From a virus (Duplodnaviria; Caudoviricetes), in the IMG/VR virus record IMGVR_UViG_3300037067_012588: a stretch of 64,000 bases of DNA; one strand, given 5' to 3'. The translations under genes and the position numbers were made by a program. The notes beneath the pieces were generated by a model. It was not told the origin of the DNA, searched no databases, and saw nothing but the letters and a program-made list of their open reading frames with translations. This document shows positions 23,191 through 63,852 of the stretch, piece after piece. The stretch's first letter is position 1, and each line of letters begins with the position of its first letter.

Positions 23191-23200
23191 AACGCCCTCA

Positions 23201-26636: not shown

Positions 26637-27719
26637 GGATGTATTTAGCTCTATAGCACAACATTTTCTTTCAAGTTTTTCACAAGCTATCAATGTAGAA
26701 CCAGAACCGCAAAATGGTTCGAATACCAAACCACTTGTCCAGCCAACAACTTCTTCCATTAGCGATACTGGTTTCTCTGTAGGATGGAGATTGTTTCCAC
26801 TCCTATCATGTAGCACCAAGTCCGAAGGACGCTTACCCGTCCAAAAATGATTCTTACCCAAATAGAACAGACATACTTCAGTCTGCCTTCCATGTTCATG
26901 CTCCAAGTCACCCATAGACCAATTATTTTTTGCCCATGTAATGAGACTTTTAGGCATTGGCACATCTACCAAGTTATTCCAACGACACCACAGATATTTG
27001 GAATGTTCAGCTTCCAATCCTGTTGCCCAAACCAAAAGCTTGGCGTCTTCATCCCCTGCAATCTTTTCATGTTTCGCTGTTCCCTTACGATGTCCACTCT
27101 GGAACGCCATCCCATAAGGAGGGTCTGATACAACTGACCCTATAACTTGCCCGTCCAAAACTCTCTTCATATTTTCAGGACTTGAGCAATCACCACACAA
27201 AAGACGATGATCACCCAATTGGTACATTTCACCAACCTGACTTATCACGTCTTTTTGTGGCTCAGGTATGTCATCCTCGTTTTTCTTAGATTTTCTTGCG
27301 CTCGTATGCCCAAGAGCCTTCTCAAGGTCATCCAGTTTTACAGAATTGAAAAGGTCTGGAAGTTCCTCATTAATCATTTTTAGAAGATCACCAGTTCCTT
27401 CTGTCCAATCTCCCTGAATAGCTGGATTGTTTAACGTGATGTTGAGGGCAATTTCTTCGTTCTCAGGCATGTCAATTACGACAACCGTTGTCTCATCAAT
27501 ACCTTGTTCTGACAACACCTTGAATCGTTGATGTCCACCGACGATATTACCAGTTCTCTTGTTCCAGACAATAGGCTCAACTAAGCCAAACCTCGTAATC
27601 GAAGAGGTCAAACCTGCAAGGGCTTCCTTTGATATAGACCTTGGGTTATAAGAAGCTGGCGTGATATCTGCCAGCTTCTTTGTTTCCCACACCAAATCAC
27701 CAATAGTTTTTTTCGACAC
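26541..27719 (-). CDS. ParB-N + beta-class N6A/N4C DNA methyltransferase
   Basis: SDPPYG, HPTEKP, VFEPFCGSGST; AGGAG SD. Confidence 0.9.
   Translation of the reverse strand: MSKKTIGDLVWETKKLADITPASYNPRSISKEALAGLTSSITRFGLVEPIVWNKRTGNIVGGHQRFKVLSEQGIDETTVVVIDMPENEEIALNITLNNPAIQGDWTEGTGDLLKMINEELPDLFNSVKLDDLEKALGHTSARKSKKNEDDIPEPQKDVISQVGEMYQLGDHRLLCGDCSSPENMKRVLDGQVIGSVVSDPPYGMAFQSGHRKGTAKHEKIAGDEDAKLLVWATGLEAEHSKYLWCRWNNLVDVPMPKSLITWAKNNWSMGDLEHEHGRQTEVCLFYLGKNHFWTGKRPSDLVLHDRSGNNLHPTEKPVSLMEEVVGWTSGLVFEPFCGSGSTLIACEKLERKCCAIELNTSYCDVIRKRWAEYVHGEGCDWQQLTPIIGATE
27561..27689. repeat. 129-bp direct repeat, copy B
   Basis: matches 26401..26529. Confidence 0.9.
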
Positions 27720-32294: not shown

Positions 32295-33401
32295 TCAAAG
32301 ACTTGACATGGCAATACGATCAATCATCGCTTGACGATTCTTTCTTGAACGAATCTCCTCAACCATGGCATGTGGACGAAGATATTCACCAGATGTAATA
32401 GAATCCTTGATGCTTTCAGCACTAAGAACATAGCTGGCAAGAATCTTTCTTGCTGTCGACATTGCAACTCTCTCGACAACCATATTGAAATCTTCTGACG
32501 AACAAACAACCTTTTTCTGGTCATTCGTCATCAGAACATCGTTATCGGAAAACAACTTTGTGAAGAACGAACAAACATGAGGGCGCATCTTATCCCACAC
32601 GGCACGCCAGAACTCTTCATTTCCCTGATTCGGAGCTTCACGAGGCAAATCCATCAGGATGCCATTGAATTTCTTCTTTCCTTCTGCGGAAAAATAATCA
32701 TTATCGATGATGGCTTCGAGAAGCCAACCAAAAAGCTTGCGCTCTTCAGGGTTCTTTGCTTTCTGAAGAATTGTACGCTTAAGCCCACTAAGTTCTTCCT
32801 CAAAACTAAGCTCTTCAATAGGCTGATGATTATCATGCAAACCACTGTAGCTTTCTTCATCATTAACGAAATTCCTTTTTTGATGAATAAACTCGTTATC
32901 GGAAATACCATCTTTATATTTTTTTCGACCACTTCCAGTTGCCCGACGAATAACAAGAACAACAAGACCCCTTGAGAAATTAAACCAATATTTCTGAATA
33001 TCTATCCACGAAATCATGAGGTCTGGATTCTGCTTCAACACTGCGTTTGGAAGCAACTCTACGGCAGGACCTCTTCCCTCTCCAACAAGAAGAGCTATAT
33101 TGAAATCCGAAAGAATCTCTTCGAAGTCATAAGAAGAAAATTGTTTCGCATATCCAAGAATCGGCTCAACCCAAGAAAATGTCTTGAGCTTTGACTCAAT
33201 ACCATCTGCCAGCAAACTCAACTTATCTGCTTCAGGGGTGTTCCCAAGAGAAATCACCTTTTCCCTTTGTGGAATAACTATCTTTTTCATTATCGCTTTC
33301 GTAAAAGCTTTCTTCGCCTCGATATCATACTCACGAATCATTTGCCGAACATCTCCATAGTCTGCAATCAGAAAACGAAGAGTTGCAAAAACGTTTTTCA
33401 T
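32295..33401 (-). CDS. hypothetical protein
   Basis: 368 aa, AGGAG SD; RVAMS and RIAMS near the C-terminus. Confidence 0.7.
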   Translation of the reverse strand: MKNVFATLRFLIADYGDVRQMIREYDIEAKKAFTKAIMKKIVIPQREKVISLGNTPEADKLSLLADGIESKLKTFSWVEPILGYAKQFSSYDFEEILSDFNIALLVGEGRGPAVELLPNAVLKQNPDLMISWIDIQKYWFNFSRGLVVLVIRRATGSGRKKYKDGISDNEFIHQKRNFVNDEESYSGLHDNHQPIEELSFEEELSGLKRTILQKAKNPEERKLFGWLLEAIIDNDYFSAEGKKKFNGILMDLPREAPNQGNEEFWRAVWDKMRPHVCSFFTKLFSDNDVLMTNDQKKVVCSSEDFNMVVERVAMSTARKILASYVLSAESIKDSITSGEYLRPHAMVEEIRSRKNRQAMIDRIAMSSL

Positions 33402-51179: not shown

Positions 51180-52010
51180 TCAAGCAAAAGTAATAATATC
51201 ACCAACCGACCCACCAGAGGGTGGCAGTGCAGACACAAAAGTATGAGTATATGTCGCCAACTCAGTTGGCGATGTGCTAAACCCATTAGAACCAGTTGTT
51301 CCAGATGTAATCGTTGCAGTCGCAGTCTTAATTGCAACAACCTCCAATTTTTGAATAGCAAGATATGTCGAGACTGTCAATGAAACATCCATCGTTCCAA
51401 TTCTCATATACAACGGTAGAAGTCCAGAAACATTTCCATACATGGGCGTTACTGTTTGGTTTATACTCAATGACCAATCCTTCAAATCATTGATCGAAGC
51501 CGAACCAGTATACCAATACGCCATTGGTGGTTCATAAGTTGCTGAAGATGGGTCTCCATGAGTTGGAGTAAACCCTGCACCATCAACCCAATCATTCTTC
51601 GAATTAAACGACAACGAACCACTCACAAGACCACCTGTTGAACCAGCAAGTGAAGCTGTCGTCATATAACAGTCTCGCATCAACAGCCCACCCTCTCCAG
51701 CATCTATACGAACTTCAAAACGAACACCTCGTTTTGAAAATATGGCAATCATGGCATCCAAAGCACTATCAGTACAATCGAAAGAGAATGAACCAGAAGA
51801 AGAAAGGATTCCGTCCGCATAGGCAAATTTCGACCGAACAGCAGCACCAGAACCACTTGTTGGCGGAGGCATGTCAATACCGACAAGTGTTGGGGTTGTC
51901 TTATCCACTTGAAAAGAAGCACTTGTTGCCAAAATCTGCACAGGAGTGCCATCATTGACAACAATCTGTACCGCACCTTCATATCCAAGTTTTTTGACAT
52001 CAGCCGACAT
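51180..52010 (-). CDS. tail tube-like protein (paralog 3)
   Basis: LGYEG N-terminus, SLAGSTGGLVSGSL, P.AYW.T, DWSLSINQ. Confidence 0.6.
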   Translation of the reverse strand: MSADVKKLGYEGAVQIVVNDGTPVQILATSASFQVDKTTPTLVGIDMPPPTSGSGAAVRSKFAYADGILSSSGSFSFDCTDSALDAMIAIFSKRGVRFEVRIDAGEGGLLMRDCYMTTASLAGSTGGLVSGSLSFNSKNDWVDGAGFTPTHGDPSSATYEPPMAYWYTGSASINDLKDWSLSINQTVTPMYGNVSGLLPLYMRIGTMDVSLTVSTYLAIQKLEVVAIKTATATITSGTTGSNGFSTSPTELATYTHTFVSALPPSGGSVGDIITFA

Positions 52011-52011
52011 A

Positions 52012-52701
52012 TTACTTTCCCTTGCTCTTCTTCTTCGCAGACCGCATCTTTGCCGACATCACGGAGTTCTCTCGATGTACCATCATCCTCAATCTCAAAA
52101 ACTCCCTATACGGAAGCTCTCGCAAATCTTTCCTGTTCAATCCAAACTTGTCCCAAAAATTTGACGAAACACAATACAAAGCTATCGTCTCGCAAGGTTC
52201 TGCCACACCGCTTGAATGTTCCGAGAACAACATCGCACACTGCTTCTCAATTTCAAGTTGATCGCCCTCGTCTGGAAAAATATCTGTCTCGTATTTCGCA
52301 GCCAAACTCATCATCAGCGGACCAGACAATGAACATACTTCTTCAAAACATTCATCCGTCAACCAACCAGTTTCATTATCAAAAGAAAGCACAACATCCA
52401 AATTCCAAGAGCGAAGAAATCGCCTCACAAACTGTCTTCTTAACTCATATATATCAACATACGAAGTTACGTCCCTCCCGCCGCCCAGCTCCACTCGAAT
52501 AGTAAGTTCACTCTCCAATCCCCAATATTCCTCACATGATGCCCTCGAAAACTTAGCCTGAACGGTTCCAAGCCCTTCAGGACAAGGAAGACAGACCCCA
52601 TTATGGAATACGGCAGGGATAGATATACAGACACTCTTGGGAGCCATTAGCGCCCGCCATTCACGCCCTATAGCTTCACTCACCACATTCGAGGACTGCA
52701 T
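52012..52701 (-). CDS. tail assembly chaperone-like protein (paralog B)
   Basis: AKFSRASCEE...FLRSWNL; C-terminal LRELPY.EF; start uncertain. Confidence 0.6.
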   Translation of the reverse strand: MQSSNVVSEAIGREWRALMAPKSVCISIPAVFHNGVCLPCPEGLGTVQAKFSRASCEEYWGLESELTIRVELGGGRDVTSYVDIYELRRQFVRRFLRSWNLDVVLSFDNETGWLTDECFEEVCSLSGPLMMSLAAKYETDIFPDEGDQLEIEKQCAMLFSEHSSGVAEPCETIALYCVSSNFWDKFGLNRKDLRELPYREFLRLRMMVHRENSVMSAKMRSAKKKSKGK

Positions 52702-53167
52702 TCATAGACTCCAAGACAAACCGAATAATACTCGGAAACAAACTCGTAAACGCTTTCCACCCTTCGTCAGCAAGGACACCATTCACATGAAGAAGCTTCA
52801 ACTTGTCGTTCGCTTTGTCAAATGACCAACTCAACATCAACCGCTGTACCTTCAACCGATTCAGATAGTCATTGTCAACAATATGAATCTTCTTGAGCGG
52901 GTCGAAAATCGTCGCCATCTTCCGAAGCTCAACCTCCTCGTTGAATGTCCAAATCCTGAACTCAACCCAGTGGTCTTCTCCTCCAGACTCAGGCTTAATC
53001 ACAACCCATCGCCCTTCTCGCTCCACGAGTCCGAAGCGAACCTTGAATGTCTTGTCCTTTGTTACAACATATTTTCCAGGACCTTGAAGCTTCTCGTCCA
53101 GACGCTCTCCAACAACATTGAACTTTTCACCTTTTTCTTCTGGCTTCTTTGACGACTCAATTTTCAT
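52676..53167 (-). CDS. tail assembly chaperone-like protein (paralog A)
   Basis: WVEFRIWTFNEE...LMLSWSF...LFPSI. Confidence 0.6.
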   Translation of the reverse strand: MKIESSKKPEEKGEKFNVVGERLDEKLQGPGKYVVTKDKTFKVRFGLVEREGRWVVIKPESGGEDHWVEFRIWTFNEEVELRKMATIFDPLKKIHIVDNDYLNRLKVQRLMLSWSFDKANDKLKLLHVNGVLADEGWKAFTSLFPSIIRFVLESMNAVLECGE

Positions 53168-53287
53168 ATCTTACCCCCAAATGAAACAGCACAGCACCCA
53201 TATGGAAAATGGGCAACGCTGTGCCGAGAATAGGTTCATCAGATTTTATTTTATATTGCCGCATTTCTGCGAACCACAAGGCACAAC

Positions 53288-54106
53288 TCAAGCAGTCGTA
53301 AATCCATACAACTGGAACTGCATTGGGAAACTCAAAATGTCGCTTGACGATTTCAATGGCTGATTGGTATTGTTCAACTCAGCATCTGGGAACGTCATAA
53401 CTGTTCCACCAATTGTCACAGCGGGCGACATCATATCATCTGGCGTTGCAACATTCAAAAGACTCTCCACAGACAAATCACCAGTCAGCGGACCAACAGC
53501 AATATACTTTGGAGCAGCAGCCTCTATTGTACTTCCGCTTCCCTGACATGTGAAAACCTTTACAACATCTTGATTGAAGTTTATCGACCAGTTGATACAG
53601 TCTCCAAGAGATACTGTTGTCTTCCAATACGGCAACGGCTTCAACTCAAAAACAACTGGTGTCACCACGCCACCTGCAGACGGAGGAGTCGGATAAACTA
53701 CACCGTTTACAATCGTCGCTGTCAAACCTGTCGCAGATAGTGAACCAGTCACTAACGAACCAACGGAACCAGACAAACTTATCGATGACCAATATGCATG
53801 GGAAAATATACCCGATGCTCCCGTACTGGGATAAACAGCGAATGGAAGAGAGGTATTACGTCCAGTAATCCAACCCAAAAGAATCCCAAGAAGTGTTCCA
53901 CTTTCATCCAGCTCAAAATCCAAGGAACCCTCATAGTTTGGATAGTCATACTGATGAGGAACACCCATACCAACAGAACCACCAGAGGCTGTTTGACCAC
54001 CAAACGAAGCCCCCGAGTCCATCCGGTTGCGGGTCTTTGTGACCCCGCCTCCGGTGAACAAGAAGGTTGTCGTCCCAATCGTTGCGTGTCCAAGATATCC
54101 GAGCAT
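53288..54106 (-). CDS. tail tube-like protein (paralog 2)
   Basis: LGYLG, YEGSL.FE, SLSGSVGSLVTGSL, PLPYWKT, NWSINFNQ. Confidence 0.65.
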   Translation of the reverse strand: MLGYLGHATIGTTTFLFTGGGVTKTRNRMDSGASFGGQTASGGSVGMGVPHQYDYPNYEGSLDFELDESGTLLGILLGWITGRNTSLPFAVYPSTGASGIFSHAYWSSISLSGSVGSLVTGSLSATGLTATIVNGVVYPTPPSAGGVVTPVVFELKPLPYWKTTVSLGDCINWSINFNQDVVKVFTCQGSGSTIEAAAPKYIAVGPLTGDLSVESLLNVATPDDMMSPAVTIGGTVMTFPDAELNNTNQPLKSSSDILSFPMQFQLYGFTTA

Positions 54107-54124
54107 GGATATTTGCCCCTTTTC

Positions 54125-55520
54125 TTATGCGTACACAATGTCCGGGTCACTCATGATGTGCGGCGGCATCAACGTGCCAGTCGAAGTCGTACAACGACCA
54201 CCGAGACCCTTGATTGTAAACGCACGGGTCGTCGGTTCGCTCTGACCCTTCAAACCGAAATCTTCCGACTCAACAACAACAGCAGGCAGCTCAACATAAT
54301 ACATGTTCGGCGTCACACCGTCCGCACGAACGCCCTGAATCGCAACACGGAACACAGTGTTCTGCGCATACAGGAAAGGATTGTCAGGTGTTCCAGTGCC
54401 AGGAGGATTCGGACCAATGATCGGGTCAAGAACACCTGTCGGGTTGAACAGCGTTACGTTACCAGAAGCACTGATAGCACCCATCAGAACAGCTTTTGCC
54501 TCACGAGAACCACCACAAGTATACATGATGTTGTGATTGTTATTACGTTCAACACTCCAATCCATAACAGAAAGGTCACTTTGAATCGTTGTCCCACCAA
54601 TAAACGGCTCATACGTTGACGTGAAACCCGTCAAAAGCTGTGCATTGGTACGCCAGAACGGAATCGGGTCAGTGTTACGACCCGAAGGATTCAACGGGAA
54701 CGTCTCAGCCAACTCAGCACATGTCGTCACACCCGTAATCTGTTCGATATATGGCTTTCCAGCAGAAACGTCTTCTTCACGAGTCAATGCAACCACCCCA
54801 ATATCACCCGTCACCAAACTACCTGGCGAGGTCGACATCGAGACACTTGTACAGAATGCACCACGGTTGTCAAAAGCTTGCGGCGAGCCACCTGTCGCCC
54901 AATAGTGATAGACTCTGTTACCATCAACAGAAATATCACAAGAACGAGCATAAGCACGGTTGTATACGCCCCACTGACGAATCGTTTCCCAAAGATTCGC
55001 ATTACCCTGCCACTCAACACTCACAGAACCTTCGTACCGAATAGCTCCATCAGCATAGTGAGCGGCTTCTGGTGCATTGAACCAACCAGCACCCCAGACT
55101 GCGCTGGAATACAGCGGTTCAAGCGTCAAATTCACGCTACCTCCTGTTGCCAGCAACAAAACAGGGTCACTCGGAGGAACGGGGGTTCCTGCGAACGGCG
55201 TTCCAAGTGTCCGGAACACTTTTATGAAGCCCATGTCACTCTGTTACTTCAGCCTTTCGGCTTACTAACCACCTTTCGATGGCGGAGAGAACACTTCGAT
55301 TCTCTCTCTCCCCTTTATAAAAACAGGTATGGGGGAGTTCAGACTGTCGCATACACCAACTCAGATACTTGACTCGTCTAAGCCTTTTCCCTGAGTTGTG
55401 CCTCCGGCACTCAGTCGTTCACGCTGCACGGTTTCCCTGCTTGCGCCCTGTCGCCCGCTGTTCGGGCTTCCAAGTCAATCAGCCGAAGTTGAGATGGGCC
55501 ATCATCTAGCCCATAGACAT
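54125..55520 (-). CDS. major tail tube-like protein, spliced: join(55508..55520, 54125..55236), 374 aa
   Basis: AGGAGG SD before ATG at 55520; spliced start MSMGYMGFIK restores the GYxG motif of the paralogs; YEGSVSVE, SMSTSPGSLVT, PIPFWRT, DWSVE. Confidence 0.8.
55237..55507 (-). ncRNA. ORF-less group I intron (271 nt)
   Basis: P1 AUGGGCU/GGCCCAU with U.G at the 5' splice site; P3 CUUCGGC/GCCGGAG; P7 GACUG/CAGUC; P8 CAACUCAG/CUGAGUUG; two GAAA-tetraloop P9 hairpins; terminal G. Confidence 0.9.
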
Positions 55521-55534: not shown

Positions 55535-56324
55535 CTATTTCATCATCCGAAAGTATTCGTCGAAAACATTTTTCTTTCTTCGGAGGCAAATTCCTCCCAC
55601 ACCATACGCAATGTTATAAAACTTTTTTGTACTCTCGATACTCGAACACTCAATGTTTCCGCAAGTGTTCCGAACCTTGAACGCACTCCAACCAAAATAC
55701 ATCCCAAATTTCTCCCAGAACGTGTTTTGAATTTGTCCAAGAGGGTCGATATGCCCAGTTATTCTAACTCGTAAACGTCCATTGTGAATGTCAACACACC
55801 CATCACCGTCAAAAAAACCACGAATGAAATGGCAATATGTGTTCTCTCCCATCAATGGTATCCTGAATCCATCTCTTCCTTTTCTGCGACAAAGCCCACA
55901 GGATTCGAACTTCTTCTTGATTCTTGCTGGAATTGTTATACGGAGATTATCTCCTATGTTTCCCAACAGAGATACCACAAATTCCTGCTATTTCACAAAC
56001 AAGGTCTCCATCTTTAAGTTCCAACAACAGATTTCCACCAAGACTTCCATCAGCACAACAAAGACCAAAAAGATAAGACTCAAAATCAGACAAACCTATA
56101 GAGCTGTTATTATCAACAACACAATTAGCCCTTAAAAACGTCTTTTTTCGACAACGAGTTTGAGCTATCTTTTTTGCACCATCAATTTGGCATGACGAAT
56201 AATAACGATACCTACCAATAACCTTCTGAGGAACAAAAATTCCTTTCAAATGCCAATATCGAACAACCGTTGTTGTTACTCCAACTGAAGATGCAAAATC
56301 TCCAATCTTCAATTCTGCATTCAT
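55535..56324 (-). pseudogene. MerR-type HTH + two-motif LAGLIDADG homing endonuclease, frameshifted near 55950-55975
   Basis: IGDFA...GVT...VRYW HTH; YLFGLCCADG in one frame and FIRGFFDGDG in the +1 frame; LRRK C-terminus. Confidence 0.8.
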
Positions 56325-56325
56325 A

Positions 56326-56856
56326 TTAGCCCTCAAGAAGCTTCGCAATACGAACAAGCTCTTTCGCAACTTTGCTGTTCACGAAAATCCGTCCTGGCGC
56401 ACGCTTCACAATCGACGGGTCTTGACCAAGCTGCTCCTCACGATTGTATTCACCCCTATCATGAACAAGATTTTCCATTTCTGGTGTCAATTTGAACCCA
56501 GCCCTTGTAATCGGGTTCGAAAGCTCTGTCTCCAGCTTGTCCTTGACCTTTTGATTCGTCCTCTTGAAGAGCTGAATCGCATACTTTGGAAGCAACTTCT
56601 TCAACGTTCCCTTATCCGTGTTGCTCATCACACCAAGCAAATAACGAACAATAATATCCGCAACAGCTCTCGCATCTGGCTTGTTGAACCCACTCATGTT
56701 TTTGTAAATCGTTGTGCGGATAGACTTTTCATCATTCGTCTGTCTTTCGTAAAGCATTCGCATTGCGATTTCGAGCCAATAATCATCATGCTCAAGTTTA
56801 TGACGCATGAATTCGACAAGAACTTTGTCTTTTCCGCTAAAAGCAACGATATTCAT
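56326..56856 (-). CDS. hypothetical protein with C-terminal AKELVRIAKLL motif
   Basis: LYERQTNDE...N.SGF...DA...KYAIQL core. Confidence 0.7.
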   Translation of the reverse strand: MNIVAFSGKDKVLVEFMRHKLEHDDYWLEIAMRMLYERQTNDEKSIRTTIYKNMSGFNKPDARAVADIIVRYLLGVMSNTDKGTLKKLLPKYAIQLFKRTNQKVKDKLETELSNPITRAGFKLTPEMENLVHDRGEYNREEQLGQDPSIVKRAPGRIFVNSKVAKELVRIAKLLEG

Positions 56857-57638
56857 AGCGCCACAATCCTTTCCTTGATATTATGAACCTCAACCTTATC
56901 ACCAGTCGTCCCAGTGAATCCAGAAGAGGCAAATCCAATCCCTATCACGTCCATAAACCTATCAGTGCTTGCCCCAATAGGAATAGCTGTCCCAGCAATA
57001 GTCCCAGCAGGAATGTTGACTTCTCGAACAACAGGGTCGCCTGCCCAATTTTTCATAGTAACAGCAATGTCAAGGCTTTCAGAACCTATCGTTGTTACCG
57101 CCCTGACCTCCAATTGAGCTGCAGCAAAGTTTCCACCATCAGCTCGCAGATTCGGATTCATGCCCGGCCCAAAATCAGCACCGTCCGTGAAATCGATAGC
57201 CGGTCCGTCTGCAACTTCGGCTGTTCCCATTACCAAATCATCTTCACAAAAAACGTTTGTCGCCAACAAAGGCGTGCTTTTTGTGATTTTGTAGACCTGA
57301 TTGAAGTAATCACTGACTCTACATGCCTGAGTCGAAAGATAACCATCCCATCCACCTACAGAGCCAACTGCATTGAAATGAACCTCCATGCCTGAGATAA
57401 CCGTTGGAAGGTTCCCAGCCAATTGAATCCATCGCTTCGCAATGAATCCTTGATCTACCGTGTAATATGGTCGAAGCAAAGCAATCTGAACATCAACATC
57501 GCCAGTCGCATTGACACGCTCGTAATACAAACCACCGCCTGTTTGGTTCACAACAACAAAAGCGTCAGATATGACTTTGTATTGTGCCGCAACACGGTCT
57601 GAAATACCAAGAAGAGCGGAAGAGGAAATTAGAGGCAT
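56853..57638 (-). CDS. putative virion structural protein
   Basis: 261 aa, beta-rich and Gly/Ala-rich, in the neck-tail operon. Confidence 0.6.
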   Translation of the reverse strand: MPLISSSALLGISDRVAAQYKVISDAFVVVNQTGGGLYYERVNATGDVDVQIALLRPYYTVDQGFIAKRWIQLAGNLPTVISGMEVHFNAVGSVGGWDGYLSTQACRVSDYFNQVYKITKSTPLLATNVFCEDDLVMGTAEVADGPAIDFTDGADFGPGMNPNLRADGGNFAAAQLEVRAVTTIGSESLDIAVTMKNWAGDPVVREVNIPAGTIAGTAIPIGASTDRFMDVIGIGFASSGFTGTTGDKVEVHNIKERIVAL

Positions 57639-57886
57639 TTTACTTTAGCCCTTTTCTTGAAATCAACCAACTTGGAACGCATTCCCAAAACCAAATCGAG
57701 AATATATCCTGCACGAACTTCAATAGCTTTAGCATGCTCAGAAAACTTTTCTTCAGTTTTCGAAGAACGCAACGCATTAAGATGTAAACGCAGATAGGCA
57801 TATTGCTGTGCTGACAACTTGAGGTCAGACAGCAACTGAAGATTCATATAATCAGGACATTTTTTAGCGACAAGACCTCGCCGCAT
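57629..57886 (-). CDS. hypothetical protein
   Basis: GGAGG SD. Confidence 0.5.
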   Translation of the reverse strand: MRRGLVAKKCPDYMNLQLLSDLKLSAQQYAYLRLHLNALRSSKTEEKFSEHAKAIEVRAGYILDLVLGMRSKLVDFKKRAKVKCL

Positions 57887-58076
57887 CTCGAACCCTCCGA
57901 ATTTTATTTGCCCACATCTCCAAGTTGTAAATCATTTCATCGACAGTATCTAGGCCTTCCGATGCGTCTTCAGAAAATGTAAAAGACAACCTTGCATCTT
58001 TGTTTTCATCATAAACAGATTCCGCTGAACGAATAGAGTCTGTTATAGCTTTCGAAATATCATCAACACAAGACAT
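57864..58076 (-). CDS. hypothetical protein
   Basis: AGGAGG SD. Confidence 0.6.
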   Translation of the reverse strand: MSCVDDISKAITDSIRSAESVYDENKDARLSFTFSEDASEGLDTVDEMIYNLEMWANKIRRVRDAARSCR

Positions 58077-58123
58077 ACGTTCCTCCTCTCGTCATTGGAA
58101 CGATATAAAAAAATAATACCATA

Positions 58124-58717
58124 TTACGGAATCGGAACAAAAGGTCGCACAATTACAGGCTGAGTCAGGCTGCCTGAAATATCAACCTCACCTCCTCCAT
58201 AGGCAAACTTACTATCTGGAAACGGCTCATGAATCAAGGCAAACCAATCAAATTCTGCCGTTCGAACTGTCCCTTCCTTGTTTGCGTTATAGGTAACACT
58301 TTCAACAAAGCTATCCATGATATATGTTGCAACCAAACCACTATTTGGGTCCCATTTTGATTCGTTCAACACACGCATCTGAAGGTTTTGCGGGTCAGTC
58401 ATCAACTCTGTCAGAATCGAAACGATAGTTGTAATATATTCCACACCAAAAGACTCGTTGTCGTTCCGCACTGTTAACGTACACTGAAAACTGTAACGAG
58501 GACGTTGTGCCCTCGTTACAGCCCATTCATTTGCACCTGTCGTTGGTTCAATTTCAAAACAGGGAAAGGCATCCACAGGAAGAGTCCTGCGCATGCCTTC
58601 GAGAACTGTTAATCCCTTACCTGGTTCATATACCTGAATCACACGATTGATAGAATCCGCATTAGACTCAAGCATACGAATCAACGTAAAAATTATGTTA
58701 TGCGGATTTGTGTACAT
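58124..58717 (-). CDS. putative tail terminator/completion protein
   Basis: size, position and DAFPCFEIEP motif typical of tail terminators. Confidence 0.55.
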   Translation of the reverse strand: MYTNPHNIIFTLIRMLESNADSINRVIQVYEPGKGLTVLEGMRRTLPVDAFPCFEIEPTTGANEWAVTRAQRPRYSFQCTLTVRNDNESFGVEYITTIVSILTELMTDPQNLQMRVLNESKWDPNSGLVATYIMDSFVESVTYNANKEGTVRTAEFDWFALIHEPFPDSKFAYGGGEVDISGSLTQPVIVRPFVPIP

Positions 58718-58728
58718 CGAATCTCCGA

Positions 58729-59760
58729 TTACTTCGCCAAACTCTTGAACTTCGCACGTTCTCCAGAATAATCGAGAGAACCTTCTTTCTCGAATTTGAG
58801 CCCAAGTGGGTTCTTTCCACGCTCAAGAATCTTCCACCCAGAACTACTTTTTGCAGAATACACGTCTTGAGAATGGTCGTCGTATTCAACAAGACAATAA
58901 TCCCAATCGTCAGCAGCACTGCTTTTTGGGTCAGACTTAAACAACTCACTCGTTTCCATCCGACTCGGAAAGAAGATAAAATACTGAGCCTTGACGACTT
59001 TCTTGTCTTCTTTCTCAGCCTTCTTCACCGATGCCTTCACCTCTTTGTAAGCATCAGCCTGTGTCGTCTTCTTCTTGATATACGCATCCACAAGCTTCTT
59101 GGCTTCCTTCTCACCAGCCGCCCCATTCCCAACCACACCCCAATTCTGATAGAGCTTCGGCTGGTTGTTGTCACCAAGACGACCACCAGCAACACCTACC
59201 CCAAACTTTCCATCCTTGTCGCTGAATGCAAAGACACAAAGATGCTTGTTGCTATTACGCTTGCAGTCCTCCCCTGAGCACTCTTTGTGTTCCTGATAGA
59301 CCATGAAACGCTGGAACTCAAGCTTCTCGCCCTTCATTCCTTCTTTCTTCAATCCTTCCAAAACAACCTTCTTCGCCTTGTCAATATCACCAGCAGACGG
59401 CGGGACAATCTTCAAATCCCAAAAAGAAACCAACAGCTTGGCAATGCGAAGCAACTCCGAGGCAATCACCTGACGGTTCATCGAACTCCTCCTTGAAAAA
59501 CAATTACCAACACACTTTCCCGAATCAACGGATACAATCTCGACCATTCCACAATTTTTACACCACACTGGAACACGGTCGGCTTTCAGAGCCATCTCCA
59601 GCATCTTTTTTTTGTCCTTGGTTCGGAAGAACTTTTCAAGGGCTTCCTCGTACTCATCAGGGAGAACACCCATGCCATACTTCTCAAGCTCCTGATCAAA
59701 ATTGACCCGATGCCCACAGCAATCGACATTCGTCATCCAAGGAATAGCCGTTCGATTCAT
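58729..59760 (-). CDS. leader-motif protein with WGR-like region; internal start at 59481
   Basis: AGGAGG-ATG at 59481 gives MNRQVIASELLRIAKLLVS; SNKH...GGRLG...EKEAKKLV..YIKK resembles WGR. Confidence 0.65.
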   Translation of the reverse strand: MNRTAIPWMTNVDCCGHRVNFDQELEKYGMGVLPDEYEEALEKFFRTKDKKKMLEMALKADRVPVWCKNCGMVEIVSVDSGKCVGNCFSRRSSMNRQVIASELLRIAKLLVSFWDLKIVPPSAGDIDKAKKVVLEGLKKEGMKGEKLEFQRFMVYQEHKECSGEDCKRNSNKHLCVFAFSDKDGKFGVGVAGGRLGDNNQPKLYQNWGVVGNGAAGEKEAKKLVDAYIKKKTTQADAYKEVKASVKKAEKEDKKVVKAQYFIFFPSRMETSELFKSDPKSSAADDWDYCLVEYDDHSQDVYSAKSSSGWKILERGKNPLGLKFEKEGSLDYSGERAKFKSLAK

Positions 59761-59783
59761 CGCTCAGCTCCAGAAAACCACTC

Positions 59784-60188
59784 TCAACCGAAGACGGAAA
59801 CAACTATGTCAACAACCTTCCCCAGTGGGAAAAAATTATCAAATTTCTCGTAAAGCCTATCGCTTCTTCCATAAGGGCTTGTATCCGCTATGGACACTGC
59901 ATGGTAGTCTCCCGAAAAATCAAGAATCACATCACACTTGGCAGCTATATCAGAACGGCTATATCCTTCAGCCGTTATAATAAAAAAGTGCCGAGTCCCT
60001 CGGTTTGTGAACCGAACATCAACACTCTCAACGCCATGAATCTTTTTCAACCTCTGCTCGACGATACTCACAACCTTCTTGTGTGCAACCAAGTACAAGT
60101 CAAGCAGGTTAACAATCTCAGAAGACACCTTAGAGGACCCCGTCAACTCATGAGCCATCCCTATTAGTTCTCTGGCGACACGCCTCAT
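59784..60188 (-). CDS. leader-motif protein
   Basis: AAGGAG SD; MRRVARELIGMAHELTG. Confidence 0.7.
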   Translation of the reverse strand: MRRVARELIGMAHELTGSSKVSSEIVNLLDLYLVAHKKVVSIVEQRLKKIHGVESVDVRFTNRGTRHFFIITAEGYSRSDIAAKCDVILDFSGDYHAVSIADTSPYGRSDRLYEKFDNFFPLGKVVDIVVSVFG

Positions 60189-60222
60189 TTTATGTCTCCT
60201 TCTTGGACAAAACTGAACCCAC

Positions 60223-60984
60223 TCAATACGTATTCTGGTTGAAAATACGATAGACGACAGTATCAATAGGGGCATCGAAAAGATTCCGAACTGCCTTGTA
60301 ATCCTCAATGTCGATATTGTATTTCTTGGAAATCTCTTCTTCGATTTTCTTCCGTACCGCCTGACTCATTTCCCTTTGAGTGTCCACGTATTTTACCTGC
60401 GGCAACTCGTTGTTCACGTTTGAATACTCATACAAGTCCCGCATCCCATCGAAGTGGCCAGACTGATAATCCTTGGCTACATCGTCCACATCCTTAGTCG
60501 TTGGACCATCAACCCACCTCACATTAACAGCATTGCCTCCAGCGAAAGACTCAGAACGAACTGAAAATTTGATGGACGGGAACTTCTTCTTCAGAACTGC
60601 CCTGACAGCCTTTGCCGCATCCGCATGGCGAGAAGCAGCCGTCATTGATTTTGCAATACGAGCCACTCTTTCCTCAATGTCTTCAGGTGTCTCTGAGTTA
60701 TCCATATCATCGTTTGCTTCTTGAATGCCTTCAAGAAAAAGTTCATCCTCATCGCCAGTCAAATAGTTCAACACGGCATGAAGTTCTCCAACATGAACAC
60801 GCTCCTCATCAGCAATACTGTGAAGAACGGTCTGAACCTTTGAGTCATCTGTTGACTCAGCAATTGTCTCATAGAGGCTTGTAGCCTCTTCCTCTGCAGC
60901 CAACGCCTGACGAATGGCACGAATAACAGCACCATGCGACATACGTGTTGGAAGAACAGCTTTTGGGTCAACAAATTGAGCCAT
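60223..60984 (-). CDS. ferritin-like domain fused to an LPD29-like domain
   Basis: AEEEA..LY...IADEERVH.GEL diiron motifs; AKAVR..LKKKFP..KFSVRS...V.W.DGP...FDGM.D.Y. Confidence 0.75.
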   Translation of the reverse strand: MAQFVDPKAVLPTRMSHGAVIRAIRQALAAEEEATSLYETIAESTDDSKVQTVLHSIADEERVHVGELHAVLNYLTGDEDELFLEGIQEANDDMDNSETPEDIEERVARIAKSMTAASRHADAAKAVRAVLKKKFPSIKFSVRSESFAGGNAVNVRWVDGPTTKDVDDVAKDYQSGHFDGMRDLYEYSNVNNELPQVKYVDTQREMSQAVRKKIEEEISKKYNIDIEDYKAVRNLFDAPIDTVVYRIFNQNTY

Positions 60985-60997
60985 GACAAACTCTCCT

Positions 60998-61441
60998 TTA
61001 TTTCTTCTTATTCGCAGCCCAAGCTGCCTCAAAACCGCCAGCACCAAAATGCTTGTCGAAAGCTTTTTTGAAAATCAACTTCATGGAAATCTTTCTCGAT
61101 GCAATGTTGTTAAAACGAACACTTATCGAAGGATAAGTCTTTCCAAGATATTTCTTTGAAATCTCTTCTCCGATGTTGTAATCCAAAGACCCAAGAAAAA
61201 TTGCCCTTGGATCTTGATTCTTGCCTCGCTTCAAATAATCAACAATATACTCGACATAATCTGCCTCGAAATCTCTCCTCAACAAATCAACCGCTTTGAC
61301 AATATCATGAATCTGTTCAGGATTGCGAGTATCCACAGACAAATACTGTTCACTCAACGCAGCAAACTGCTTGAACGCAGAATCACCAGCGATCAACTCC
61401 TTAGATATTCTCATCAACTCATCGGCAACACGCTTCATCAT
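60998..61441 (-). CDS. leader-motif protein
   Basis: AAGGAG SD; MMKRVADELMRISKELIAG. Confidence 0.7.
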   Translation of the reverse strand: MMKRVADELMRISKELIAGDSAFKQFAALSEQYLSVDTRNPEQIHDIVKAVDLLRRDFEADYVEYIVDYLKRGKNQDPRAIFLGSLDYNIGEEISKKYLGKTYPSISVRFNNIASRKISMKLIFKKAFDKHFGAGGFEAAWAANKKK

Positions 61442-61449
61442 AATCTCCT

Positions 61450-61938
61450 TTACCAATCCTGTTCTGGAGCAACAGGAGGCATCATCGTAGGAGGCATAGT
61501 ATGACCCATATGACCCGACTTCATACGTTGTCCTGGAAGACGATGTTGCATCCGTCGCATCTTGAAAACTTCCTTGCGACTATCCTCAATAAACGAAGCA
61601 GCCGACTCATTCGTATTCGGGTCAACACCTTGAAACTGAACCTGCAACATCAGTCCAGCCGTCCAATATCTCGCCAAACGTGTCAAAGCTCCAGGAAAAA
61701 TGGACTTCGTTGTTCCATCTGGTTGATATTGGTTAATTTGAACAAGAGGAACCCAATACATATCCTCAAGCATACCGTCGATTTCTCTATCGACCATTTC
61801 TTGGAATCGATTCACGGTCTGCTGATTGATAGAAGCAATCTTACCCTCGCCGATGTTCAAAACACGACATAGGTCACGGATGTCGCTCCATGATCCTGAA
61901 TAATATGGTTTTCCGGTAACAACTGAGATGTCAGGCAC
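61450..61938 (-). CDS. head-tail adaptor (Mu gp36/DUF1320-like)
   Basis: VDREIDGML...Y.VPL...L..LA.Y..A pattern. Confidence 0.65.
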   Translation of the reverse strand: MPDISVVTGKPYYSGSWSDIRDLCRVLNIGEGKIASINQQTVNRFQEMVDREIDGMLEDMYWVPLVQINQYQPDGTTKSIFPGALTRLARYWTAGLMLQVQFQGVDPNTNESAASFIEDSRKEVFKMRRMQHRLPGQRMKSGHMGHTMPPTMMPPVAPEQDW

Positions 61939-61940
61939 TG

Positions 61941-62324
61941 TTATCTCCTAGAGACAAACGCCCACTTCGGTGTAATCTTGGTATATTCTGGGAGACGCTT
62001 TCCATAACCAGCCTCAATCACATCAACAGCCCTAGACTCCATTTCATTCCAGTTAACGCCAAGCTTTTCCATCTCGGCAACAACCTTCTTGGCATCAAAT
62101 GAATCCATCTTGATTGTACGGATTCGCTTTTCACTTGTGGTCATCTCAGCAGCAATGGCATCGTTCTTTGCGGCAGCGTCTTCAATAACCTTCTTCTGCT
62201 GTTCCTGAAGCGAAGCAATCTTGCCAACAAGATCAATCATCTCAGCGGTGTTGTCATTTGACGCTGAGACAAGACTATTGGAAATACGAATCAATTCTTT
62301 TGCAATGGCTTTCTTGTTCATCAC
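61941..62324 (-). CDS. leader-motif protein
   Basis: MNKKAIAKELIRISNSLVSA; AGGAG SD. Confidence 0.7.
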   Translation of the reverse strand: MMNKKAIAKELIRISNSLVSASNDNTAEMIDLVGKIASLQEQQKKVIEDAAAKNDAIAAEMTTSEKRIRTIKMDSFDAKKVVAEMEKLGVNWNEMESRAVDVIEAGYGKRLPEYTKITPKWAFVSRR

Positions 62325-62334
62325 AATCTCCTAT

Positions 62335-62817
62335 TCAACGAAGTCTTGATTCAATGTGGTTTCGTGTATCTTCATCAAGGTCTTCCCATTTAATTTGTTT
62401 CCCGAGATGTTTACCCTCTTTCCCACTGGTAAACTGGGAAACACCACGCCCGCCCTCACTCAACGCCAACATTGGAACTTGTCCACTACTTACAGAATCT
62501 TTCCAATCATCTCCATCAATAACGACAGAATACCTGTCGATGGAGTCTCCGCCATTATCGTAAACACGAACCGATGTATCGTTGTCAATTTTGTGCGTGT
62601 TTTTCTTCATAGTAGACGGATTCGGCGCAGTCTGCTTTGGAGCTGTTTCTTTCGGCGCAGTCTGCTTCGGCCCGTTCTTTTTCAACGTCAACCTCGTGCC
62701 TGGCTTGACATTGTGATTCTTCTTGTAATCATCAAGCTCCTTCTTGGTATCGAACTCCATACCAACAAGAAGACTTGCAATATAAACCAGTTCCTTTGCA
62801 ACCGTTCGATGACTCAT
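62335..62817 (-). CDS. leader-motif protein
   Basis: MSHRTVAKELVYIASLLVGMEFD; PKQTAPKETAPKQTAP repeats; VYDNGG...DRYSV domain. Confidence 0.75.
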   Translation of the reverse strand: MSHRTVAKELVYIASLLVGMEFDTKKELDDYKKNHNVKPGTRLTLKKNGPKQTAPKETAPKQTAPNPSTMKKNTHKIDNDTSVRVYDNGGDSIDRYSVVIDGDDWKDSVSSGQVPMLALSEGGRGVSQFTSGKEGKHLGKQIKWEDLDEDTRNHIESRLR

Positions 62818-63527
62818 GACTTTCCTCCCTTGAGAATACCTTCCATCAACTTCTTCGCTTTCGAAAGTTGAGCAATGTCAGATTTCTTCCATTCATCACG
62901 AGGATTGGCGATGTAACCCTTGACCTTACTAAGAGCCTTCTCCATAACATCACGGTCTACCTCATGGCCGCCACCAGAACTCGATGAAACCTGATAGATA
63001 GGGTCACTACCCGAGTCGTGCCACTGACCAAGAAGCTCAGCCAAATCCTTATGCGTTTTCACCTTTTTCGGGGCAGTTTCTTCTTTCTGTTCTTCTTTTT
63101 TCTGTCCACCAATATGTTCTTCAAGAAGCTTTTTTGCCTTAGAGAGTTTATCCAACTCATCCTTTGGCCATTCTGGTGCCGGGTTTTTCAGATAACCATC
63201 AATCACACCAACAGCCTCTTTCATGCGCTCACGCCCAAGAGCAAAGCCACTCTTTGAGTAATTCGAAACATCGGAAATCGAATCAAATCCTCCACTGGTC
63301 CACTTCCTCAGAAGCTTGCCAAGCTCTTCATGCGGAACAACCTTTCCATCATCCTTCTTTTCTGGAGAACTCTTCTCACCATCTTTCTTTTTGACCGTAT
63401 GGTTGCTCTTTTCTGCTCCAGGATGGTCTTTAAGATATTTCTTCAGTGCAGCATCAGAGTCAAACTCCATGCCCAACAAATCTTTAGCACAAAGAAGCAA
63501 TTCAGAAGCAATAGCTTTCTTATTCAT
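62814..63527 (-). CDS. leader-motif protein with an internal tandem domain duplication
   Basis: MNKKAIASELLLCAKDLLGMEFD; two copies of H..L..LL..W..G.D.I..VS...EW.K.....LSKAKKL. Confidence 0.75.
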   Translation of the reverse strand: MNKKAIASELLLCAKDLLGMEFDSDAALKKYLKDHPGAEKSNHTVKKKDGEKSSPEKKDDGKVVPHEELGKLLRKWTSGGFDSISDVSNYSKSGFALGRERMKEAVGVIDGYLKNPAPEWPKDELDKLSKAKKLLEEHIGGQKKEEQKEETAPKKVKTHKDLAELLGQWHDSGSDPIYQVSSSSGGGHEVDRDVMEKALSKVKGYIANPRDEWKKSDIAQLSKAKKLMEGILKGGKS

Positions 63528-63528
63528 C

Positions 63529-63852
63529 TCAAACTCTCCTCGATCCACGTCTAGAACCTTTAACACCAAGAACCCCATCCAAACCAATTCGAGAAACTTC
63601 TGAATCTGGTAAGGCTGCCTGAATTCGACGTGAAAGATTTGAAATATCGTTCTCCGTCTTTCCAGAAGCAATCACAACAACATCATATCCAGAACCACCA
63701 GCAACACGAGACTGGGCATGTTCTCCATCCATTACCATCGCCTTGGAGTCTTTGAATGCCAAGCGAACTTCACGACGAACGGACTCCATAACAAAAGCGG
63801 AGCCAATCAGTCGACGAATTTCTTTGAGTTCTGCTCCAAGGTCTATCTTCAC
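63529..63852 (-). CDS. hypothetical protein with a divergent leader motif
   Basis: MKIDLGAELKEIRRLIG. Confidence 0.6.
   Translation of the reverse strand: MKIDLGAELKEIRRLIGSAFVMESVRREVRLAFKDSKAMVMDGEHAQSRVAGGSGYDVVVIASGKTENDISNLSRRIQAALPDSEVSRIGLDGVLGVKGSRRGSRRV

What the first reader, a model, noticed from the sequence alone, without database searches (positions are those of the whole stretch)
56326..63852. Shared A-x-E-L-x-x-I-A-x-x-L-x-[GAS] tag on unrelated proteins in the head/neck region: candidate capsid-packaging or processing signal
Seen as N-terminal leaders: MNKKAIASELLLCAKDLLG (63527), MSHRTVAKELVYIASLLVG (62817), MNKKAIAKELIRISNSLVSA (62324), MMKRVADELMRISKELIAG (61441), MRRVARELIGMAHELTG (60188), MNRQVIASELLRIAKLLVS (59481), and the weaker LGAELKEIRRLIG (63852). 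It also occurs at a C-terminus, NSKVAKELVRIAKLLEG* (56326), with a partial internal copy, EERVARIAKSMTA, between the two domains of 60223..60984. Downstream domains are mostly unrelated. Established: T4 internal proteins use a short capsid-targeting sequence removed by the prohead protease. Inference: a portable amphipathic helix that loads diverse cargo into the head for injection, possibly cleaved after the small residue.
Basis: partly seen in the sequence, partly recalled or inferred. Interest (0 to 1): 0.85.

Follow-up and report, generated by a model that had tools for sequence, protein, structure and literature searches.

The report
Scaffold-mimic capsid tag on phage proteins
A giant uncultured phage puts the same 17-residue helix on many unrelated small proteins, and related phages have that helix at the end of a small scaffold-like head protein, so it is probably an address label that loads cargo into the capsid; no experiment has tested this.

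Summary
Seven copies of the helix [KR]-x-[VI]-A-x-E-L-[LVI]-x-[IVL]-A-[KR]-x-L-x-[GSA] lie at 56.3-63.5 kb on the minus strand. They score 26-32 bits against noise below 5, and there are none elsewhere in the 64 kb.

Conservation is at the protein level. The proteins are unrelated once the tag is removed. Six copies are N-terminal leaders, each with its own ribosome-binding site. One ends a protein.

The window is a jumbo phage whose capsid protein is related to that of Bacillus phage G. A 253-kb relative carries about 26 tagged genes, half of them in the head and neck modules (P = 4e-8). Its tagged proteins include a topoisomerase IB and a CCA-adding enzyme.

The key result concerns a small acidic helical protein encoded between the head protease and the capsid gene in relatives. 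It ends in this same helix (profile-profile E = 3.5e-7; controls negative). Natural fusions join tagged cargo directly to that protein.

Most likely the tag copies a scaffold's capsid-docking helix and co-assembles cargo into proheads. This would be a new variant of the T4, P1 and encapsulin targeting principle. Packaging, cleavage and injection are untested.

The scan's earlier AI notes describe similar tags in other phages and elsewhere in this genome.

The parts
62814..63527 (-). Tagged protein, 237 aa. N-terminal tag at 63521-63465, then a short 'MEFD..KYLKxHP' module and two internal repeats.
   Evidence: (20.2 bits). No Pfam or PHROG family.
62335..62817 (-). Tagged protein, 160 aa. N-terminal tag at 62811-62755, then the 'MEFD' module. 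In a relative its body is the C-terminal module of a 380-aa tagged protein.
   Evidence: 22.9 bits; L058 3015-4154, E 6.5e-35.
61941..62321 (-). Tagged protein, 126 aa. N-terminal tag at 62315-62259. Body of unknown function.
   Evidence: 22.4 bits. Only a weak Lsr2-like PHROG hit, E 0.007.
60998..61441 (-). Tagged protein, 147 aa. N-terminal tag at 61438-61382. Body unknown.
   Evidence: 22.3 bits; no informative match.
59784..60188 (-). Tagged protein, 134 aa. The tag starts at residue 1 (60188-60132). Body unknown.
   Evidence: 23.8 bits.
58729..59760 (-). One open frame holding a zinc-ribbon domain (59760-59482), the tag (59475-59419) and a 230-aa body. An internal ribosome-binding site and ATG sit at 59481. 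In the relative these are two genes, each with its own tag.
   Evidence: (26.3 bits).
56326..56856 (-). 176-aa protein (phrog_21015 domain) that ends in the tag (56379-56329). Together with the homing endonuclease gene it is part of a 1.3-kb insertion absent from the relative.
   Evidence: 23.7 bits. A low-confidence fold gives a helical domain, a linker and a terminal helix at residues 161-175.
60223..60984 (-). Rubrerythrin/ferritin-like domain fused to LPD29 (a polyvalent-protein domain). It carries NO tag here. In relatives both halves occur as separately tagged proteins.
   Evidence: LPD29 2.2e-21; Rubrerythrin 3.4e-6; 1.7 bits.
61450..61938 (-). Conserved untagged structural gene among the tagged ones. 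It has a weak match to phage Mu gp36 (head-tail joining) and is 83% identical in the relative.
63529..63852 (-). Conserved untagged 107-aa protein.
   Evidence: no hit; conserved in four relatives.
55535..56321 (-). Free-standing homing endonuclease gene directly behind the C-terminal tag. It has a MerR-like helix-turn-helix and two LAGLIDADG motifs, split over two frames.
   Evidence: LAGLIDADG_3, 6.5e-5.

Best explanation
The tag is a portable copy of the C-terminal helix of a small acidic, all-helical head-assembly protein (scaffold-like) of this phage lineage.

Proposed mechanism (inferred):
- The scaffold-like protein uses this helix to dock on the inner face of the assembling capsid, or on the scaffold core.
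- Any protein carrying the same helix at its start, at its end or in a linker is co-assembled into the prohead.
- Once the scaffold is removed, that protein stays in the head with the DNA and is available for delivery into the next host.

The tagged genes are variable cassettes, co-oriented and tightly packed among late head, neck and tail genes. Recombination inside the tag shuffles modules and makes multi-module chains.

Shown here: the shared helix; its identity with the C-terminus of the scaffold-like protein; natural fusions of cargo to that protein; and enrichment in the head and neck modules.

Inferred, not shown: that the small acidic protein really is a scaffold; which partner the helix binds; encapsidation; any cleavage (possibly at the cargo-specific A-x-E); and injection.
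For: 1. The tag is real and selected at the protein level. There are seven copies in the window against noise below 5 bits, and synonymous codons differ between copies.

2. Its position in the protein is free. Among 79 distinct tagged proteins from 1.69 Mb of related head loci, 59 tags are N-terminal, 12 internal and 8 C-terminal, on 60 unrelated bodies. This fits a docking peptide, not an N-terminal signal.

3. The opposite strand serves as a control. In 860 kb there are 103 hits of at least 10 bits on the coding strand and 2 on the other strand.

4. The lineage and its head module are identified. The relative G001 (253 kb) is collinear with the window. Its head module holds the large terminase subunit, the portal, the head protease and a capsid protein matching phage G gp27, PDB 6WKK, at E 1.7e-60.

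5. The scaffold-like protein ends in the tag.
- A 95-130 aa acidic protein lies directly after the protease and before the capsid gene in 33 loci. It ends '...QNxKAxxNWP... VAxxLVxLAKxLL'.
- A tag profile trained only on cargo puts its best hit within 8 residues of the C-terminus in 21 of 26 distinct C-terminal sequences among the matching frames.
- hhalign of the cargo leaders against this family gives 93% probability and E 3.5e-7, aligning leader residues 3-20 with residues 82-99 of 100.
- The same test against the capsid protein and two other acidic head proteins gives 0.3%, 3% and 0.9%.
- AlphaFold2 models the protein as all-helical, and the terminal helix is its most confident part, pLDDT 87.

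6. Some orthologues of this protein carry two to five copies of the helix.

7. Natural fusions link cargo to the scaffold-like protein. A 638-aa frame (L099) and database proteins P0124, P0126, P0149 and P0189 are chains of tag and body that end in the scaffold-like protein.

8. Tagged genes are enriched in head and neck modules. In G001, 13 of 26 tagged genes lie in those modules, which hold 40 of 415 frames (P 3.7e-8).

9. The cargo resembles known virion-borne or encapsulated proteins. It includes topoisomerase IB encoded directly after the terminase gene, a CCA-adding enzyme, a rubrerythrin/EncFtn-like protein, a 2H phosphoesterase and LPD29. LPD domains are predicted to be capsid-packaged (PMC5512222).

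10. [quoted passage not shown]
Against: - No virion proteome exists for any member. The nearest cultured relatives (Tunturi_5 and phage G) lack this motif near their capsid genes.
- 'Scaffold' is inferred only from gene position, composition and predicted helices.
- Half of the tagged genes of G001 lie outside the recognised structural modules, next to a CCA-adding enzyme gene and what look, by eye only, like a cysteine desulfurase and a Ro60-like gene. A CCA-adding enzyme is not an obvious injected protein.
- The head protease of this clade ends in a different motif, not the tag.
- The window's own head module could not be read, so the scaffold link rests on relatives whose capsid proteins are 86-93% identical to G001's.
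Confidence: 0.6

Rival explanations
1. The helix is a general hetero-oligomerisation handle. It tethers many phage proteins to the small acidic multi-helix protein, or to each other, in the cytoplasm, forming a hub or condensate for RNA and DNA repair or host takeover. The proteins never enter the capsid.
For: - The acidic protein can carry two to five copies of the helix, as a multivalent hub would.
- Half of the tagged genes in G001 lie outside the structural modules, next to a CCA-adding enzyme gene and genes that look, by eye only, like a Ro60-like protein and a cysteine desulfurase.
- The a/d-type hydrophobic stripe fits helix-helix pairing.
Against: - The acidic protein sits between the protease and the capsid gene in 33 loci.
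- Tagged genes are strongly enriched in the head and neck modules.
- In the window they are packed among neck genes, with no excess of promoter- or terminator-like sites over shuffled sequence.
Confidence: 0.15
2. The tag is mainly a recognition and cleavage element for the prohead protease (A-x-E, then Leu). It marks proteins and polyproteins for processing, and targeting is done by something else.
For: - Ala at tag position 5 and Glu at position 7 are nearly invariant in cargo leaders (60 and 53 of 61). The scaffold copies have K, R or S instead of Glu.
- From my own knowledge, A-x-E resembles the S/A/G-x-E and L/I-x-E sites of phiKZ-type and T4-type head proteases.
- The tags sit at module joints in polyprotein-like frames.
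Against: - Conservation extends ten residues beyond the Glu, with helical periodicity, and the tag occurs at extreme C-termini where cleavage would release nothing useful.
- The specificity of this protease family (phrog_18299) is unknown.
- This reading is compatible with the best explanation and does not exclude it.
Confidence: 0.1
3. The shared N-terminus is only a relic of common descent and recombination. It would be a duplicated gene family whose bodies diverged or were swapped, and the tag would have no targeting role.
For: - The genes occur in tandem clusters.
- Recombination at the tag is evident. The zinc-ribbon frame and the next gene are separate in G001 but fused in the window.
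Against: - The bodies belong to unrelated folds: topoisomerase IB, a nucleotidyltransferase, rubrerythrin and zinc ribbons.
- The tag keeps the same residues on 60 unrelated body clusters, and synonymous sites vary. This indicates purifying selection on the peptide.
- The tag also occurs at C-termini and in the scaffold-like protein.
Confidence: 0.06
4. The tag is an amphipathic membrane-binding helix that brings proteins to the cell membrane.
For: It is a four-turn amphipathic helix with flanking basic residues.
Against: - It is present in a very acidic soluble-looking protein of the head module and in DNA and RNA enzymes.
- The hydrophobic face is Ala-rich and short.
- There is no link to lysis or membrane genes.
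Confidence: 0.04

Closest known systems
Capsid targeting sequence (CTS) of phage T4 internal proteins IPI-III and Alt (PMC3012670; Mullaney and Black, as cited in PMC9024508)
   Same: A short leader is shared by otherwise unrelated, fast-evolving proteins encoded among late genes. In T4 it directs them into the scaffolding core of the prohead and can carry foreign proteins.
   Different: - The T4 CTS is about 10 residues long, strictly N-terminal, and removed by the gp21 protease.
- Here the tag is a 17-residue amphipathic helix found at N-termini, at C-termini and in linkers.
- Here it matches the C-terminus of a scaffold-like protein, sits on about 26 proteins per genome, and occurs in a phage-G-type lineage that is not T4-like.
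- Cleavage is unknown here.
N-terminal packaging signal of phage P1 DarB (PMC9024508)
   Same: In P1 the N-terminal 30 residues are enough to load a reporter protein into the capsid, and the cargo is an anti-defence protein.
   Different: In P1 no consensus is shared among the Dar proteins. Here one consensus is shared by dozens of proteins.
C-terminal coat-binding helices of phage scaffolding proteins (P22 gp8, staphylococcal 80alpha gp46/CpmB) and engineered cargo fusions to the P22 scaffold (PMC9962691)
   Same: A terminal helix of a small helical scaffold docks on the coat protein. Fusing cargo to that element loads capsids, and natural cargo-scaffold fusions exist here.
   Different: - Those natural scaffolds are not copied onto other proteins of the phage.
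- Binding to the capsid protein has not been shown here.
Encapsulin cargo-loading peptides, with ferritin-like cargo such as EncFtn
   Same: An HK97-fold shell is loaded through a short terminal peptide on varied cargo. A tagged rubrerythrin/EncFtn-like protein occurs in relatives.
   Different: - From my own knowledge, encapsulin peptides are mostly C-terminal and Gly/Ser/Leu-rich, not this helix.
- Encapsulins hold no DNA and deliver nothing.
Polyvalent proteins and MuF-anchored effectors of phages (PMC5512222)
   Same: Varied effector domains, including LPD29, which is present at 60223-60984, are predicted to be packaged in heads and injected. Multi-domain chains occur.
   Different: There the domains are joined in one giant chain or anchored by a MuF domain. 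Here mostly single domains each carry a small docking helix.

Membership tests
T4-type capsid targeting sequence | A short leader shared by unrelated proteins encoded among late or structural genes | tested here: met
T4-type capsid targeting sequence | The leader is sufficient and necessary for encapsidation | not testable with these tools
   Needs a packaging assay or virion proteomics.
T4-type capsid targeting sequence | Removed by the prohead protease at a consensus site at the end of the leader | tested here: inconclusive
   Nothing is conserved after the helix. A cargo-specific A-x-E lies inside the tag. Protease specificity is unknown.
T4-type capsid targeting sequence | Strictly N-terminal position | tested here: not met
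   Of 79 tagged proteins, 8 have C-terminal and 12 have internal copies. The window copy at 56329-56379 is C-terminal.
Scaffold C-terminal coat-docking helix | The helix lies at the extreme C-terminus of a small helical protein encoded between the protease and the capsid gene | tested here: met
Scaffold C-terminal coat-docking helix | The helix binds the major capsid protein or the scaffold core | not testable with these tools
   Needs binding assays or a procapsid structure.
Scaffold C-terminal coat-docking helix | The carrier protein is required for head assembly and absent from mature heads | not testable with these tools
   No cultured member of the clade.
Encapsulin cargo-loading peptide | HK97-fold shell protein | tested here: met
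   The capsid protein matches phage G gp27, PDB 6WKK, at 1.7e-60.
Encapsulin cargo-loading peptide | The encapsulin consensus peptide, and a shell without portal or DNA | tested here: not met
   Portal, terminase and tail genes are present. The tag consensus is a helix. That it differs from the encapsulin motif rests on my own knowledge.
Polyvalent protein / LPD domains | Presence of a curated LPD domain | tested here: met
   LPD29 at 60223-60984, 2.2e-21. That protein itself carries no tag in the window.

The most novel reading that the evidence does not exclude
Phage-G-type jumbo phages would run a natural, programmable cargo-loading system comparable to that of encapsulins.

- One scaffold-derived helix addresses dozens of swappable proteins to the capsid interior for delivery with the DNA. 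The cargo includes topoisomerase IB, a CCA-adding enzyme, an EncFtn-like rubrerythrin, a 2H phosphoesterase, zinc ribbons and many unknown proteins.
- The same helix serves as an in-frame recombination joint. This builds polyproteins and cargo-scaffold fusions, which the head protease would resolve at the cargo-specific A-x-E.
Probability: 0.35. Interest if true: 0.8.

Novelty: new variant of a known kind. Interest (0 to 1): 0.6.

Why it matters
If the reading is right, four things follow.

- **A readable cargo list.** The tag gives a sequence-only way to list the injected or encapsidated proteome of a large group of uncultured giant phages. These proteins act first in an infection and are likely to include anti-defence and repair functions.
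- **How cargo sets evolve.** New cargo arises by adding a 17-residue helix or by recombining at it.
- **A link between shell-loading systems.** It connects scaffold-mediated assembly, the T4 and P1 targeting signals, and encapsulin cargo loading under one principle.
- **A possible tool.** A short natural tag, with a defined partner family, could be used to load proteins into HK97-fold shells.

Tried and rejected
- **Complex prediction.** I predicted a complex of the G001 capsid protein with the cargo leader, using alignments A3 and A4. The verdict was 'no answer' (score 0.00), so it counts neither for nor against binding.
- The scan of metagenome contigs returned only a 2.9-kb piece carrying the capsid gene 100% identical to P0002. 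So the window's own head module could not be read.
- **No whole genome.** None is held for the window, and an exact 44-mer from the window is not in IMG/VR.
- **Family searches in G001.** Pfam Peptidase_S77, Peptidase_S78 and Phage_capsid found nothing in G001. The head genes came from PHROGs and the PDB sequence search instead.
- **DNA or RNA element rejected.** Synonymous sites vary between copies, and Rfam finds nothing in the window.
- **A second tag class rejected.** A profile of protease C-termini finds only the protease itself in G001.
- **The larger acidic head proteins.** Similarity of the tag to an internal helix of the larger acidic head protein (A8) is weak, at E 0.015 and probability 3%. 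There is none for the other acidic protein (A9).
- **Cultured relatives.** Phage G and Tunturi_5, and the uncultured 485-kb record LR745208, have no copy of this motif near their capsid genes.
- **LR745208's own leader.** LR745208 has a different leader of its own. Its likeness to that phage's protease C-terminus is visible only by eye and is not detected by a profile.
- **Function of the window's cargo bodies.** PHROGs, Pfam and the ESM Atlas gave no usable function.
- **Single-sequence fold.** The fold of the protein at 56326-56856 was of low confidence, mean pLDDT 42.

Full report
**1. The observation**

All genes in the window lie on the minus strand. A pattern search over all six frames finds A-x-E-L-x-x-[ILMC]-[AS]-x-x-L-x-[GAS] exactly seven times. 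All seven are in real minus-strand frames between 56,329 and 63,521.

A profile built from the seven scores them 26-32 bits. The best of the other 1,441 stop-to-stop frames scores below 5 bits.

At the DNA level the copies use different synonymous codons. The six N-terminal copies each follow a Shine-Dalgarno-like sequence and an ATG. The conserved object is therefore a peptide, not a DNA or RNA element. Rfam finds nothing in the window.

Once the tag is cut off, the seven proteins show no significant pairwise similarity; the best E-value is 0.083.

**2. What the window is**

- Three paralogues with weak tail-tube matches lie at 51180-55234.
- Giant proteins follow (2,025, 907 and 1,316 aa), the last with tail and Ig-domain matches.
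- There is also an anaerobic ribonucleotide reductase.
- Four ParB-methyltransferase genes complete the picture, which is that of a large tailed phage.
- No cultured phage is similar at the DNA level.

The tube-like protein led to a 253,102-bp IMG/VR contig, G001, with 90% protein identity. The window is collinear with G001 positions 210-253 kb.

The capsid protein of G001 matches gp27 of Bacillus phage G (PDB 6WKK) at E 1.7e-60. Other relatives by capsid protein are the uncultured 485-kb record LR745208, Tunturiibacter phage Tunturi_5 and cluster C mycobacteriophages.

A capsid protein 94% identical to G001's lies on a 344,634-bp contig. This fits the 345-kb genome size given in an earlier scan note, but I could not read that contig.

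**3. Distribution of the tag**

I fetched G001 whole. With a profile trained on 31 copies, about 26 of 415 crude open frames carry the tag.
- About 17 carry it at the N-terminus, usually starting two to three residues after the Met.
- Four carry it at the C-terminus.
- The rest carry it in linkers.

Thirteen of the 26 lie in the head module (83-106 kb) or the neck module (209.6-217 kb). Those modules hold 40 of the 415 frames (P = 3.7e-8). The remainder cluster at 59.7-67.6 kb and 188.7-191.5 kb.

Enzymes among the tagged proteins:
- A topoisomerase IB encoded directly after the large terminase subunit, with the tag at residues 84-100.
- A CCA-adding/poly(A)-polymerase-HD enzyme, with the tag at residues 67-84.

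In 860 kb of head-module loci from 80 relatives, hits of at least 10 bits number 103 on the coding strand and 2 on the opposite strand.

Over 1.69 Mb there are 79 distinct tagged proteins in 60 unrelated body clusters. Pfam recognises only a few: DUF7007, DUF7717, a 2H phosphoesterase, zinc ribbons and a rubrerythrin/EncFtn-like protein.

The consensus over 61 N-terminal leaders is M-[DN]-x-K-[KR]-[IV]-A-x-E-L-[LVI]-[RK]-[IVL]-A-[KR]-x-L-[VT]-[AGS]. Nothing is conserved after it.

**4. The link to head assembly**

Earlier AI notes of this scan, on other phages, suggested looking at the ends of proteases and scaffolds. I tested that suggestion here.

The G001 head module reads, in order:
- large terminase subunit
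- tagged topoisomerase IB
- portal
- a 654-aa protein
- three tagged genes
- head maturation protease (phrog_18299, 1.3e-9)
- three acidic proteins
- a decoration-like protein
- capsid protein
- after a 662-aa protein (G001 101524-103512), four more tagged genes

The protease of this clade ends in its own motif, not the tag.

The first acidic protein after the protease does carry the tag. It was found in 33 loci; the orthologues printed in full are mostly 77-131 aa. It begins with a basic stretch and a helix, continues with an acidic linker, and ends '...QNxKAxxNWP...VAxxLVxLAKxLL'.

- The tag profile contained no scaffold sequences. It still places its best hit within 8 residues of the C-terminus in 21 of 26 distinct C-terminal sequences among the matching frames.
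- Profile-profile comparison of the cargo leaders (A4) with this family (A7) gives 93% probability and E 3.5e-7. It aligns leader residues 3-20 with residues 82-99 of 100.
- The same comparison gives 0.3% for the capsid protein and 3% and 0.9% for the two other acidic head proteins.
- AlphaFold2 models the family as all-helical, with the terminal helix the most confident part.
- Some orthologues carry two (G001), four or five copies of the helix.

In 1.84 billion representative proteins the family has only 93 members at E up to 0.001. In most of them the match runs to the last residue.

**5. Fusions**

- One relative (L099) has a 638-aa frame directly after the protease. It reads tag-body-tag-body-tag-body and ends in the scaffold-like protein.
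- Database members P0124, P0126, P0149 and P0189 are further chains in which tagged modules are fused to the scaffold-like protein. P0143, P0167 and P0187 fuse another domain to it.
- In the window, the zinc-ribbon frame and the following tagged gene are separate genes in G001, each with a tag. Here they form a single frame joined at one tag.
- The body of 62335-62817 reappears as the last module of a 380-aa tagged protein in another relative.

The tag is therefore a joint at which modules are exchanged. Covalent fusion to the scaffold-like protein is an alternative to carrying the tag.

**6. Interpretation**

The simplest reading is that the helix is the docking element of a small scaffold-like head protein, and that proteins carrying a copy are co-assembled into proheads.

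This matches the logic of several known systems:
- the T4 capsid targeting sequence (PMC3012670)
- the P1 DarB signal (PMC9024508)
- engineered cargo fusions to the P22 scaffold (PMC9962691)
- encapsulin cargo peptides

It also agrees with the prediction that LPD-type domains are head-packaged (PMC5512222). LPD29 is present at 60223-60984, and LPD29 and rubrerythrin proteins carry the tag in relatives.

In the window the tagged genes are packed head to tail among conserved neck genes. Promoter- and terminator-like sites are no more frequent than in shuffled sequence. This fits late co-expression with the structural genes.

What remains inferred:
- that the acidic protein is a scaffold
- the binding partner of the helix
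- encapsidation
- cleavage
- injection

The Glu of A-x-E is conserved in cargo (53 of 61) but replaced in the scaffold copies. It could be a protease site. That is speculation.

**7. Weak points**

- There is no proteome for any clade member.
- Half of the tagged genes in G001 lie outside the recognised structural modules.
- A CCA-adding enzyme is an unexpected head protein.
- The window's own head module could not be read.
- The structure-based binding test gave no answer.

**8. Novelty**

Term searches of the library, including a find-in-text pass through the jumbo-phage review PMC7824862, turned up no description of this tag.

The principle is known. What is new here:
- the form: a scaffold-derived helix that works at any position in the protein
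- the scale: dozens of cargo proteins per genome
- the lineage: phage-G-type jumbo phages
- the natural cargo-scaffold fusions

I class it as a new variant of a known kind. The scan's earlier AI notes report comparable tags in other phage lineages and further copies in this same genome.

Noticed in passing
window 55535-56862: A 1.3-kb insertion relative to G001 holds the C-terminally tagged gene (56326-56856) and a free-standing homing endonuclease gene. The endonuclease has a MerR-like helix-turn-helix and two LAGLIDADG motifs, split over two frames (55947-56321 and 55535-55978). It sits between a conserved 261-aa protein and the tube-like gene.
   Followed up: partly
window 62335-62817 and 62814-63527; also G001 210398-210826, L099, P0124, P0126: A second small module, '[MI]EF[DP]..(6-8)..KYLKxHPxADKSxHxVKK', follows the tag directly in at least seven proteins. 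Its function is unknown.
   Followed up: partly
window 58729-59760 versus L001 6796-8000: A zinc-ribbon protein and the next tagged gene are separate in the relative. There the first ends in a tag plus a Gly-rich tail. In the window they are fused in frame at a single tag, which points to recombination within the tag.
   Followed up: yes
L033 (LR745208.1, 485 kb): A sister lineage has its own, different 30-residue N-terminal leader, MTTLRSKLIRLAHENPALRPQLLPLLKEAG, on 11 proteins spread over the genome. Its protease ends in ...ARTLIRLASLLSAH, which looks similar by eye only.
   Followed up: partly
G001 84808-85785 and 64933-66615: A topoisomerase IB and a CCA-adding/HD enzyme each have the layout N-terminal domain, tag, enzyme. 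The topoisomerase gene directly follows the large terminase gene.
   Followed up: partly
L037 16843-17223; window 60223-60984: A rubrerythrin/EncFtn-like protein carries the tag in a relative. This recalls the encapsulated ferritins of encapsulins. The window's version is fused to LPD29 and is untagged.
   Followed up: partly
window 32295-33401 (C-terminus): The end of this 368-aa protein of unknown function gives the best match outside the protease to the protease C-terminal motif (8.9 bits). Its G001 orthologue scores 3.8 bits. This is probably not significant.
   Followed up: no
window 21862-27719: There are four consecutive ParB-domain DNA methyltransferase paralogues. One (23201-25252) has extra inserted domains.
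   Followed up: no
window 51180-52010, 53288-54106, 54125-55234: Three paralogous proteins give weak Phage_tube_2 matches, an unusual multiplicity of tube-like genes.
   Followed up: no
L001 2-1504 (G001 205141-207375): A glycosyltransferase-like gene appears to be interrupted by an intein with LAGLIDADG motifs. Several head proteases in relatives are 700-1,487 aa long, which suggests inserted elements there too.
   Followed up: no
L114 1422-1688: On a 2.9-kb contig whose capsid gene is 100% identical to P0002 (the capsid protein found on the 344,634-bp contig, probably the window's own phage), a gene with an N-terminal tag directly follows the capsid gene.
   Followed up: partly
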